From a virus (lineage: Duplodnaviria; Heunggongvirae; Uroviricota; Caudoviricetes): a stretch of DNA of 21,912 nucleotides. The notes beneath the pieces are model-generated. The model was not told the origin of the DNA and did no database searches. It worked only from the letters and a program-made list of their open reading frames with translations. Positions 1-552 of this stretch are shown here, piece after piece. Position numbers and translations under genes: made by a program. Position 1 is the stretch's first letter. Each line of letters opens with the position of its first letter. Location: IMG/VR virus record IMGVR_UViG_2778261446_000009, positions 1 through 21,912 of that record. One strand, written 5' to 3'.

Positions 1-288
1 TTACCGCAACAACTCCCTTTTCCCGTTATCAAGATTCTCCAAGTGAGGCTCCGGGCGGGTGCGATAGCGCTTAATCCTGAACTCACCTCCGTCAGCACAT
101 ACCAGCAATGAACCATCACAAGTCCTCAGTGAGGCGTCAACAACTAATAAAGCCACGCTGAGTATGCCTTCGCGATAGTGCGTCGAACCGGCGCGCATGA
201 AGTACGTGGCAGCTGGCCTGGTTATGATGCTCTTGTCGAGCGATATGCGTTCTTCAACGTAGTCTGCTGCTGGACTCGGGAATCCCAT
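1..288 (-). CDS. UmuD-like S24 (LexA-family) peptidase-domain protein, about 95 aa; the tool ORF 1..369 has an unsupported N-terminal extension
   Basis: Translation MGFPSPAADYVEERISL...ATYF...VDGGEF..IK resembles the E. coli UmuD core (GFPSPAADYVEQRIDL...ATYFVKA...VDGEFTVKK). ATG at 286-288 is preceded by CGGAGGTG (RBS). Stop TAA at 1-3. The region aligned to the UmuD GDSM serine motif reads GSTHY, so catalytic competence is uncertain. Confidence 0.6.
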   Translation of the reverse strand: MGFPSPAADYVEERISLDKSIITRPAATYFMRAGSTHYREGILSVALLVVDASLRTCDGSLLVCADGGEFRIKRYRTRPEPHLENLDNGKRELLR

Positions 289-305
289 GATGCACCTCCG
301 ATAGT

Positions 306-325
306 TACTGTATGCATATGCAGTA
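306..325. promoter_or_regulatory. LexA (SOS) box TACTGTATGCATATGCAGTA, inside a longer palindrome 301-330
   Basis: CTG-N10-CAG with perfect TACTG/CAGTA arms, matching the E. coli LexA operator consensus TACTG(TA)5CAGTA. It lies 6 nt upstream of the RBS of the UmuD-like gene. Confidence 0.6.
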
Positions 326-552
326 ACTATCGATCGGCGACATCGATTAACATCCATTTTGAACAACACGGTTAACGTATTGAGATAAAGCGATAATTAT
401 TTCCATGCTGCATCGGTATGGACACTATGTTTGTGGCTGCCTTCACCAAACTATGTGCAAATTGTGGAGAAAGGAAGGAGTCGATGTTACTCTTAAGCAT
501 TACTTTTTAATAATTGGTAGCCTGCTGTTGTTATAGCAAGCTACCATTGTCC

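What the first reader, a model, noticed from the sequence alone, without database searches (positions are those of the whole stretch)
1..330. SOS-box-controlled UmuD-like gene directly flanking the tailspike end of the prophage
A near-consensus LexA operator (TACTGTATGCATATGCAGTA, inside a 30-bp palindrome) sits 6 nt upstream of the RBS of a UmuD-like S24-domain gene. The protein has the GFPSPAADYVE and VDGGEF..IK signatures, but the region where the GDSM catalytic serine is expected reads GSTHY. This could be a truncated or diverged mutagenesis-module gene, or a LexA-regulated cargo gene at the prophage boundary. The window ends at its stop codon, so a umuC-like partner cannot be seen.
Basis: partly seen in the sequence, partly recalled or inferred. 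Interest (0 to 1): 0.4.

Follow-up and report, generated by a model that had tools for sequence, protein, structure and literature searches.

The report
Broken SOS-controlled humD gene in prophage
This is a copy of humD, the phage version of the bacterial mutagenesis protein UmuD', with a LexA (DNA-damage) operator in front of it, sitting as the last gene of a P22-like prophage; a premature stop codon has disabled it, so it is an ordinary decaying member of a known family.

Summary
Window 306-325 matches TACTG-N10-CAGTA exactly (0.02 expected by chance). It lies 17 nt upstream of a 95-codon minus-strand ORF (288..4; stop 3..1) with a GGAGG ribosome-binding site.

The ORF belongs to the HumD family (NCBIfam NF051876, 151 bits against a cut-off of 120) and is 69% identical to phage P1 HumD. 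HumD proteins start at the residue where UmuD is cleaved, so they are made already "activated". The odd GSTHY motif is typical of the family: Thr replaces the Ser nucleophile in 94 of 121 members.

The stop at window 1-3 is premature. A contig identical to the window over 4288 nt shows CAA(Gln96) changed to TAA, with the last 33 codons still in frame beyond the window. The lost part is the family's most conserved block. The copy also carries G45V at a conserved glycine, and base changes in both inferred promoter hexamers.

No umuC partner exists. About 85 bp after the original humD stop comes the attachment core inside host sbcB, then dacD.

LexA boxes precede humD in all ten other copies examined, from eight named phages and three E. 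coli prophages. humD is independently broken in two other P22-like phages. This is known biology and of low interest.

The parts
1..288 (-). humD pseudogene: 95 sense codons (288..4) plus the stop. The product starts MGFPSP, which is equivalent to UmuD Gly25 onward.
   Evidence: NCBIfam NF051876 HumD: E=1.4e-44, 151.1 bits (cut-off 120), profile positions 1-93 of 129. 69% identical to P1 HumD over 94 aa with no gaps. PHROG 811 'UmuD-like protein', E=3.4e-37.
1..3 (-). Premature ochre stop (TAA) replacing Gln96 (CAA). The remaining 33 codons and the natural stop lie just outside the window.
   Evidence: L007 is identical to the window over 4288 nt and reads ...KRELLR*KDEMADSDRPVFGVITYIINDARSGEFDDYPLK*. 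The intact homologue in strain PI6 has CGG CAA AAG at this point.
153..155 (-). Codon 45, Val. This is a G45V substitution at a glycine conserved in the family and in UmuD.
   Evidence: Gly in 116 of 120 family members and in E. coli UmuD. Val occurs only in this allele and one cluster-mate.
295..299 (-). Shine-Dalgarno sequence GGAGG, 6 nt upstream of the ATG.
   Evidence: Read directly. CGGAGGTGCATCATGG is conserved in DETEC-P61, PI6 and APC_JM3.2, and differs by one base (CGGATGTG) in BTP1.
306..325 (.). LexA operator (SOS box), TACTGTATGCATATGCAGTA.
   Evidence: Only exact TACTG-N10-CAGTA match in the window, 0.02 expected. Heterology index 7.25, best in the window, reached by 0 of 60 shuffles. 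A box is present in front of humD in all ten other copies examined, and it is annotated as a LexA site in P1 and phiKO2.
299..332 (.). Imperfect palindrome enclosing the operator.
   Evidence: Arms 299-313 and 318-332, 15 nt, 93% complementary.
320..350 (-). Inferred sigma-70 promoter. The -35 hexamer TTAATC (350..345) and the -10 hexamer TACTGC (325..320, the first six bases of the operator) are separated by 19 nt. Both hexamers are weakened here compared with relatives (TTGATC and TACTGT).
   Evidence: This is inference from comparison. A TTGnnn hexamer lies 17-19 nt upstream of TACTGT in DETEC-P61, L009, PI6, BTP1, HK140, N15 and APC_JM3.2. The SNPs at 348 and 320 are listed. The simple consensus scan found no promoter here.
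515..546 (-). Stem-loop after the tailspike stop, followed by AUUAUU. It is probably the late-operon terminator and would insulate humD from read-through.
   Evidence: RNA fold -20.6 kcal/mol, z = -4.8, matched by 0 of 200 shuffles. Inverted repeat I3.
553..2448 (-). Tailspike gene (P22 head-binding domain plus an SGNH/GDSL esterase domain), the upstream neighbour on the same strand.
   Evidence: Pfam Head_binding 6.3e-66 and Lipase_GDSL_2 2.5e-15. RefSeq annotates it 'phage tailspike protein'.

Best explanation
Window 1-350 holds the regulatory region and the first 95 codons of humD. HumD is the phage-borne homologue of UmuD', the activated accessory subunit of DNA polymerase V. Here it is carried as an accessory gene ('moron') at the end of a P22-like prophage, next to the attachment site inside host sbcB.

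In intact relatives the inferred mechanism is as follows. LexA binds the operator, which overlaps the inferred -10 hexamer, and keeps the gene off. DNA damage leads to LexA cleavage, and HumD is then made directly in the 'already cleaved' form. It needs neither the RecA-stimulated self-cleavage step nor the Ser nucleophile. No polymerase gene accompanies humD, so it presumably pairs with the host's UmuC to give a Pol V-like translesion polymerase.

In this window the gene is a pseudogene. CAA(Gln96) has become TAA, which removes the last 34 residues, the best-conserved block of the family. There is also a G45V change at a conserved glycine, and both inferred promoter hexamers carry weakening substitutions. 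The operator probably still binds LexA, but the product is most likely non-functional.

Shown here: family membership, the operator, the nonsense lesion, the absence of umuC, and the position beside the attachment site.
Inferred: the promoter assignment, LexA binding in vivo, and loss of function.
From the literature: P1 HumD functionally replaces UmuD' (McLenigan et al. 1999, cited in PMC7092418, PMC4713147 and the P1 GenBank record).
For: Family membership
- NCBIfam HumD 151.1 bits, above the 120 cut-off. The UmuD subfamily model scores only 70.3 against a cut-off of 110.
- 69% identical to P1 HumD. The intact PI6 homologue is 65.6% identical to P1 HumD and 68% to N15 gp26.
- All 121 aligned family members start M-G at the positions of UmuD Cys24-Gly25. 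The nucleophile position holds Thr in 94, Ser in 26 and Ala in 1. Lys97 is kept in 117 of 121.

Operator
- Statistics.
- A LexA box lies 14-44 nt upstream of humD in DETEC-P61, L009, PI6, P1, BTP1, N15, APC_JM3.2, HK639 and phiKO2. In HK140 it precedes a two-gene orf27-humD unit.
- P1 and phiKO2 annotate it as a LexA site. PMC9603915 calls humD LexA-regulated.

The lesion
- L007 equals the window over 4288 nt and shows a single in-frame TAA at codon 96, followed by 33 intact codons.
- The family norm is 128-129 aa (94 of the 120 best hits).
- Residues 108-127 of the family alignment are invariant or nearly so. They align to the last conserved segment of UmuD' (VFGVVIHVV) in 1UMU.
- G45V.
- A sub-lineage (DETEC-P61, S163-2) has added a 1-nt deletion and a Gly to Val change downstream of the stop. 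RefSeq marks that copy as a frameshifted pseudogene.

Context
- The order is tailspike, humD, attachment core CGTAATCGTGAAA inside sbcB codon 16/17, then dacD. There is no umuC.
- Phage APC_JM3.2 has the same layout, tailspike-humD-attP-int.
- humD is independently broken in APC_JM3.2 (two stops) and BTP1 (a stop at codon 29 and loss of frame later).
Against: - Nothing here measures expression, LexA binding or protein activity.
- The nonsense allele is not rare. The exact 95-aa product is indexed in 60 blocks of the collection and sits in prophages with different immI regions. It has therefore persisted and recombined, which a functional short form would also explain. Linkage to the adjacent tailspike is the simpler reading.
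- The operator matrix was built from operators recalled from memory.
- The promoter is inferred; the consensus scan did not call it.
- The AlphaFold model of an intact homologue was too poor (pLDDT 41.7) to show what the truncation removes. That point rests on sequence alignment to UmuD'.
Confidence: 0.85

Rival explanations
1. The 95-residue product is a functional short form. It would be an SOS-induced fragment that still binds UmuC, UmuD/UmuD' or RecA filaments, and would act for example as a dominant-negative damper of Pol V mutagenesis in the lysogen.
For: - The allele is widespread and sits in several different prophage backbones (60 collection blocks).
- Its 90% cluster holds only two distinct sequences.
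- A good ribosome-binding site and an operator within the range of my known-site set are retained.
- Other truncated family members end nearby, at 86, 89 and 98 aa.
Against: - It lacks the most conserved block of the family and carries G45V at a conserved glycine.
- Both inferred promoter hexamers are weakened in this copy, and some carriers have changed the operator's CAG to TAG.
- Sequence downstream of the stop is accumulating an indel and missense changes, as expected for simple decay.
- The sequence uniformity is partly an artefact, because the loci were retrieved by exact protein identity.
- The clustering of truncation points is biased: shorter fragments would not rank among the best hits, and some short entries may be cut by contig ends.
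Confidence: 0.07
2. It is a conventional umuD (the self-cleaving S24 subunit of a umuDC-type operon), and its umuC partner lies just beyond the window edge.
For: S24 homology and the GFPSPAADYVE and GEF..K signatures.
Against: - The extension (L007, L001) shows the rest of humD, about 85 bp of phage DNA, the attachment core, an sbcB 5' remnant and then dacD. There is no polymerase gene.
- The protein starts at the Gly of the cleavage site and has no N-terminal arm.
- The UmuD subfamily model scores 70.3, below its 110 cut-off.
- The Ser nucleophile is replaced by Thr.
Confidence: 0.01
3. The box is primarily the operator of some other transcript and only incidentally sits next to humD. Candidates are a divergent gene (as with lxr in P1, or dinI in phiKO2 and HK140) or a small RNA in the 330-552 spacer.
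For: In P1, phiKO2 and HK140 the same LexA box serves a divergent SOS gene (lxr or dinI) as well as humD.
Against: - The 330-552 spacer holds only 42-43-aa ORFs with no PHROG match and no Rfam match.
- The upstream neighbour, the tailspike gene, runs in the same direction and is followed by a strong hairpin.
- RefSeq annotates nothing there.
Confidence: 0.04

Closest known systems
Bacteriophage P1 HumD (AAQ14073; McLenigan et al. 1999, J Bacteriol 181:7005)
   Same: - 69% identical over residues 1-94 with no gaps.
- Both start MGFPSPAADYVE at the UmuD cleavage site.
- Both are stand-alone genes without umuC.
- A LexA box lies 17-19 nt upstream of the ATG in both, and P1 annotates it as a LexA site.
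   Different: - P1 HumD is 129 aa and experimentally active. This copy stops at codon 96 and carries G45V.
- P1 keeps Ser at the nucleophile position (ADSHH); this copy has Thr (GSTHY).
- P1 is a plasmid prophage whose box also serves the divergent lxr gene. This copy is the terminal gene of an integrated P22-like prophage and has no divergent partner.
Escherichia phage APC_JM3.2 'DNA polymerase V subunit' (ATN92737) and the BTP1 humD remnant
   Same: - Both are P22-like (Lederbergvirus) genomes.
- APC_JM3.2 has the gene order tailspike-humD-attP-integrase. In BTP1 gtrC and gtrA lie between the tailspike gene and the humD remnant.
- Both have a LexA box 17 nt upstream, and APC_JM3.2 has the same CGGAGGTGCATCATGG leader (BTP1 differs by one base).
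- Both copies are also pseudogenes.
   Different: - The lesions are independent: APC_JM3.2 has stops at codons 99 and 120, and BTP1 has a stop at codon 29 and loses the frame later.
- BTP1's attachment region contains a tRNA-like sequence read by eye, not sbcB.
- APC_JM3.2 is 73.6% identical to the intact PI6 protein over 129 aa, and its 98-aa product is 77% identical to the window protein.
Intact chromosomal-prophage HumD (WP_096937414, E. coli PI6) and HK140 gp28
   Same: - Same locus (prophage end beside dacD/sbcB) and the same attachment core.
- The DNA matches are about 82% identical to PI6, and HK140 gp28 is 86.8% identical to the PI6 protein. The closest intact protein is 91% identical (P0002).
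- Both have the GATHY-type motif.
   Different: - Those copies are full length at 129 aa.
- PI6 has gtrABC between the tailspike gene and humD.
- HK140 is a lambdoid siphovirus whose humD follows a small ORF and lies divergent from dinI.
E. coli UmuD / UmuD' (PDB 1UMU, 1I4V, 1AY9, 8GMT)
   Same: Same S24 fold family. The intact homologue aligns to UmuD' residues 25-137 with E=2.8e-20. Lys97 is conserved, and both genes are LexA-repressed.
   Different: - No N-terminal arm and no Cys-Gly cleavage site.
- A one-residue deletion in the active-site loop, and Ser replaced by Thr.
- No umuC in an operon with it.
- Scores below the NCBIfam UmuD subfamily cut-off.

Membership tests
HumD family (NCBIfam NF051876, equivalog) | Profile score above the curated cut-off | tested here: met
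   151.1 bits against a cut-off of 120, E=1.4e-44, even though only profile positions 1-93 of 129 are covered.
HumD family (NCBIfam NF051876, equivalog) | Translation starts at the position of the UmuD Cys24/Gly25 cleavage site (a 'pre-cleaved' UmuD' mimic) | tested here: met
   MGFPSP aligns to UmuD C24-G25-F-P-S-P. All 121 aligned members have M-G there. A ribosome-binding site lies 6 nt upstream of this ATG.
HumD family (NCBIfam NF051876, equivalog) | Full length of about 128-129 aa, including the conserved C-terminal block (VFGVITYIINDARSGEFDD) | tested here: not met
   An ochre codon at position 96 ends the product at 95 aa. The block is still encoded in frame beyond the stop in L007. This is therefore a pseudogene of the family, not an intact member.
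HumD family (NCBIfam NF051876, equivalog) | LexA operator directly upstream | tested here: met
   Exact TACTG-N10-CAGTA match 17 nt from the ATG. The same arrangement is seen in all ten other copies examined.
HumD family (NCBIfam NF051876, equivalog) | Stand-alone gene on a phage or prophage, with no adjacent umuC-type polymerase gene | tested here: met
   L007 and L001 extend past window position 1: attachment core, sbcB remnant, dacD.
HumD family (NCBIfam NF051876, equivalog) | Functionally substitutes for UmuD' in SOS mutagenesis | not testable with these tools
   Known only for P1 HumD, from the literature (cited in PMC7092418 and the P1 record). Loss of function is expected here.
UmuD, autoproteolytic Pol V subunit (NCBIfam NF007621 / PRK10276) | Profile score above the cut-off | tested here: not met
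   70.3 bits against a cut-off of 110.
UmuD, autoproteolytic Pol V subunit (NCBIfam NF007621 / PRK10276) | N-terminal arm with a Cys/Ala-Gly cleavage site, plus a Ser-Lys catalytic dyad | tested here: not met
   There is no arm. Thr occupies the Ser60 position in a loop one residue shorter (GSTHY against SGDSMI). Lys97 is retained.
UmuD, autoproteolytic Pol V subunit (NCBIfam NF007621 / PRK10276) | Encoded in an operon with umuC | tested here: not met
   No polymerase gene lies downstream.
LexA / phage CI-type repressors (HTH + S24) | N-terminal DNA-binding domain | tested here: not met
   Only the S24 core is present. The TIGR00498 lexA model scores 19.4 bits against a cut-off of 110.95.
E. 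coli-type LexA operator (SOS box) | CTG-N10-CAG palindrome with an A/T-rich centre and a heterology index within the range of known sites | tested here: met
   The CTG and CAG triplets are intact. The index is 7.25 on a matrix whose training operators span 2.1-11.9. Caveat: the matrix was built from operators recalled from memory, and binding was not measured.

The most novel reading that the evidence does not exclude
The ochre-truncated HumD(1-95) may be kept because it does something. It could be an SOS-induced fragment that titrates UmuC, UmuD' or RecA filaments and so dampens Pol V mutagenesis in lysogens. The repeated breakage of humD in P22-like prophages (this clade, APC_JM3.2, BTP1) might then reflect selection against an integrated prophage carrying a constitutively 'activated' UmuD' mimic.
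Probability: 0.06. Interest if true: 0.45.

Novelty: already known. Interest (0 to 1): 0.1.

Why it matters
It matters little beyond correct annotation. HumD-type genes with LexA boxes have been described in P1, N15 and phiKO2, have a dedicated NCBIfam model, and are annotated in RefSeq.

Two modest points come out of this check. First, the 'missing' catalytic serine is a property of the family. That fits a protein that never needs to cleave itself, and it is not a sign of a new activity. Second, humD at the tailspike-attachment junction of P22-like prophages is repeatedly found broken. Anyone inferring extra mutagenic capacity from prophage gene content should therefore check that the reading frame is intact.

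Tried and rejected
- Megablast of window 1-560 against the phage collection found nothing. Protein-level tblastn was needed to find the relatives.
- I first read the lesion as a frameshift, from the RefSeq note on DETEC-P61 and the pairwise alignment. I rejected that for this window. L007, identical to the window, shows a plain CAA to TAA change with the frame preserved. The 1-nt deletion is a later event in a sub-lineage.
- I considered GSTHY as a local lesion of the active site and rejected it, because Thr is the majority residue in the family.
- The AlphaFold2 model of the intact homologue P0002, from a 43-sequence alignment, had mean pLDDT 41.7 and pTM 0.30. It was unusable, and no fold search was run.
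- The consensus promoter scan found no minus-strand promoter between 289 and 552. The promoter given in this report is a comparative inference only.
- The Rfam scan of 1-700 found nothing at E<=1. The small ORFs in the 330-552 spacer have no PHROG hits.
- The primary HumD paper (PMC94175) and the P1 genome paper (PMC523184) are not held. Their content is cited only through other papers and the GenBank annotation.
- Literature searches for UmuD in P22-like phages returned nothing relevant.

Full report
**1. What is in the sequence**

On the minus strand of window 1-369 the mechanical ORF list gives a 122-aa GTG-started ORF. The real start is the ATG at 288..286. It is preceded by GGAGG (299..295) after a 6-nt spacer, and every homologue begins at this Met.

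The product is 95 aa: MGFPSPAADYVEERISLDKSIITRPAATYFMRAGSTHYREGILSVALLVVDASLRTCDGSLLVCADGGEFRIKRYRTRPEPHLENLDNGKRELLR. The stop codon is TAA at window 3..1.

Six nucleotides upstream of the ribosome-binding site lies TACTGTATGCATATGCAGTA (306-325), inside an imperfect palindrome with arms 299-313 and 318-332, 93% complementary.

**2. Is the operator more than chance?**

- The box is the only exact match to TACTG-N10-CAGTA in the 21.9-kb window. Dinucleotide-preserving shuffles give 0.02 expected. With one mismatch allowed it is still the only match, with 0.38 expected.
- I built a Lewis-type heterology index from about 26 E. coli operators. The list was recalled from memory, so the numbers are approximate. 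The box scores 7.25. The training operators span 2.1-11.9 with a median of 7.1.
- It is the best 20-mer in the window; the next best scores 10.99. None of 60 shuffled windows reached 7.25.
- 'Near-consensus' is a little generous. On the gene strand the first half-site reads CTGC rather than CTGT.

The comparative evidence is stronger. A LexA box precedes the homologous gene in all ten other copies I examined:

| Copy | Index | Distance from box to ATG |
|---|---|---|
| P1 | 3.97 | 19 nt |
| N15 | 3.66 | 14 nt |
| HK639 | 3.41 | 17 nt |
| phiKO2 | 2.98 | 44 nt |
| BTP1 | 2.05 | 17 nt |
| APC_JM3.2 | 10.62 | 17 nt |
| E. coli PI6 prophage | 9.17 | 17 nt |
| E. coli DETEC-P61 prophage | 2.98 | 17 nt |
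| L009 prophage | 7.64 | 17 nt |
| HK140 | 5.47 | upstream of a two-gene unit |

The P1 and phiKO2 GenBank records annotate these boxes as LexA binding sites. PMC9603915 refers to humD as a LexA-regulated SOS gene.

**3. What the protein is**

Pfam places it only just inside Peptidase_S24 (25.6 bits, cut-off 23.3). NCBIfam is specific:

- The equivalog model NF051876, 'HumD family translesion DNA polymerase', scores 151.1 bits (cut-off 120, E=1.4e-44) over profile positions 1-93 of 129.
- The UmuD subfamily model scores 70.3, below its cut-off of 110.
- The LexA model scores 19.4.

The protein is 69% identical to phage P1 HumD over 94 residues without a gap. An intact 129-aa homologue from the same chromosomal position in E. 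coli PI6 is 65.6% identical to P1/P7 HumD and 68% to N15 gp26. It is 86.8% identical to HK140 gp28.

According to the literature, P1 HumD is a functional homologue of the processed form UmuD' and supports SOS mutagenesis in E. coli. The source is McLenigan et al. 1999, J Bacteriol 181:7005, as cited in PMC4713147 and PMC7092418. The P1 record says it 'functionally complements E. coli UmuD''. I could not read the primary paper.

**4. The 'missing' GDSM motif**

I aligned the 120 best database relatives with P1 HumD and E. coli UmuD. My UmuD sequence came from memory, and its UmuD' part agrees with the 1UMU alignment.

- Every family member starts M-G at the columns of UmuD Cys24-Gly25. The proteins are therefore made in the post-cleavage form.
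- The active-site loop is one residue shorter than in UmuD.
- The Ser60 column holds Thr in 94 members, Ser in 26 (including P1) and Ala in 1.
- Lys97 is kept in 117 of 121.

GSTHY is therefore the usual state of this clade (GATHY in PI6, HK140 and N15; ADSHH in P1), not a lesion of this copy. Relaxed conservation of the nucleophile fits a protein that no longer has anything to cleave. That last statement is inference.

**5. The stop codon at the window edge is premature**

The exact 95-aa protein is in the public collection (P0001). A look-up of where it is encoded returned ten loci.

One of them, L007 (GCA_002517975.1, contig NOCT01000050.1), is identical to the window at all 4288 overlapping positions. 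Past window position 1 it reads CGG TAA AAG GAT GAG ATG GCT..., where the intact PI6 gene has CGG CAA AAG GAT GAG. Translated through the stop, it gives ...KRELLR*KDEMADSDRPVFGVITYIINDARSGEFDDYPLK*. The lesion is thus a single Gln96 to ochre change, and the remaining 33 codons are still in frame.

My first reading was a frameshift, taken from the RefSeq note on DETEC-P61. That applies only to a sub-lineage (DETEC-P61, S163-2, L012). This sub-lineage has additionally lost one A and changed VFGV to VFVV downstream of the stop.

The family norm is 128-129 aa, seen in 94 of the 120 best hits. The lost segment contains the longest run of invariant or nearly invariant columns in the family alignment (F108 to P127). 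It aligns with the last conserved segment of UmuD' (VFGVVIHVV) in 1UMU.

The copy also carries G45V. That glycine is conserved in 116 of 120 relatives and in UmuD.

An AlphaFold model of the intact homologue was too poor to add anything (pLDDT 41.7).

**6. Promoter (inferred)**

The consensus scan called no promoter upstream of the gene. Comparison does suggest one. A TTGnnn hexamer lies 17-19 nt upstream of TACTGT, the first six bases of the LexA box, in these copies:

- HK140: TTGATC, 17 nt
- N15: TTGCAT, 17 nt
- PI6 and BTP1: TTGATC, 18 nt
- DETEC-P61 and L009: TTGATC, 19 nt
- APC_JM3.2: TTGAAC, 19 nt

If that is the promoter, LexA binding would occlude the -10 hexamer.

In this window the -35 hexamer reads TTAATC. 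The G to A change at 348 is shared only with L007. The -10 hexamer reads TACTGC. The T to C change at 320 is the same base change that weakens the operator. In three other carriers the operator's CAG has become TAG (window position 310).

A strong hairpin follows the tailspike stop codon and is followed by AUUAUU (515-546; -20.6 kcal/mol; z = -4.8). The gene is therefore probably insulated from late-operon read-through and depends on its own promoter.

**7. Context and the missing umuC**

In L007, L001 and eight further carriers the order is tailspike (631 aa, P22 head-binding domain plus SGNH esterase), humD*, dacD, sbmC, yeeA.

I aligned the junction with the empty site of K-12 and with the annotated attP of phage HK140. 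The common core is CGTAATCGTGAAA, about 85 bp beyond the original humD stop and inside codons 16/17 of host sbcB. humD is therefore the last gene of the prophage, and no umuC-type gene follows it.

This agrees with P1, N15, phiKO2, HK639 and HK140, where humD also stands alone. The published complementation result implies that HumD works with the host's UmuC.

The sequenced P22-like phage APC_JM3.2 has the same tailspike-humD-attP-integrase layout.

**8. Decay is recurrent**

- APC_JM3.2 humD has two in-frame stops.
- BTP1 humD has a stop at codon 29 and loses the frame later, although its LexA box is perfect.
- Other short family entries of 86, 89 and 98 aa exist. Some may be cut by contig ends, and very short fragments would not have ranked among the best hits.

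The nonsense allele studied here is indexed in 60 blocks of the collection. It sits beside the same tailspike gene in prophages whose immI regions differ. Its 90% cluster holds only two sequences.

I read this as a recent, neutral passenger linked to the tailspike and attachment module. A retained function of the fragment cannot be excluded with these data, and I give it about 7%.

**9. Verdict**

This is a LexA-box-preceded humD, a UmuD' mimic, at the attachment-site end of a P22-like prophage integrated in sbcB. A nonsense mutation that happens to coincide with the window edge has inactivated it.

The kind is well known: it has been described in P1, has its own NCBIfam model, and is annotated in RefSeq. 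Interest is low.

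Noticed in passing
window 4863-5504 (+): A 213-aa CI/LexA-like repressor (HTH_3 plus Peptidase_S24, with the full C-terminal S24 domain) lies in the immI region. On one side is the gp16-like ejection protein gene (5914-7755). On the other are two anti-repressor genes (3890-4621 with Bro-N/P22_AR_C domains; 3074-3889, PHROG 1726). An Arc-like gene sits at about 2560-2838. A cleavable repressor in this position is not the classic P22 mnt/arc/ant arrangement.
   Followed up: no
L007 4470-4530 (just beyond window position 1); L004 3360-3580 (HK140 attP); L006 6757-6846 (K-12 sbcB): The prophage is integrated inside sbcB at codon 16/17, at the core CGTAATCGTGAAA. 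The native sbcB promoter and first 16 codons remain beside the humD end and read into the prophage (MMNDGKQQSTFLFHDYAQHP*), antisense to humD. HK140's attP carries a surrogate sbcB 5' end (MTDTDKQPTFLFHDY) that would rebuild the gene at the other junction. The other junction of this prophage was not fetched.
   Followed up: partly
window 310, 320, 348 (compared with L008-L016): Among ten nearly identical carriers, seven sites vary within 560 nt. Two of them fall in the 20-bp LexA box and one in the -35-like hexamer. About 0.25 would be expected in the box by chance. This could be regulatory decay of a dead gene or a mutational hot spot at a palindrome. The numbers are too small to decide.
   Followed up: partly
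window 553-2448 (-): The tailspike combines the P22 head-binding domain (residues 1-113) with an SGNH/GDSL esterase-type domain in place of a beta-helix glycanase. That suggests O-antigen deacetylation as the receptor-modifying activity. This tailspike and the broken humD travel together across prophages whose immI regions differ.
   Followed up: no
L005 3001-3390 (BTP1); L018 2501-2887 (APC_JM3.2): humD is independently pseudogenised in two other P22-like phages. BTP1 has a stop at codon 29 and loses the frame later, and the remnant is not annotated as humD. APC_JM3.2 has stops at codons 99 and 120. Both still have a LexA box 17 nt upstream.
   Followed up: yes
one search hits H53-H58, H66-H69, H71 (Stx2-converting phages, phage 2851, mEp234, Sf101, HK544): Unannotated C-terminal fragments of humD (residues about 45-129, 73-129 or 101-129) are found in several lambdoid and Stx2 phages. 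In the Stx2 phage records they lie close to the record end. This suggests that the 3' end of humD is part of a widely shared attP arm for the sbcB integration site.
   Followed up: no
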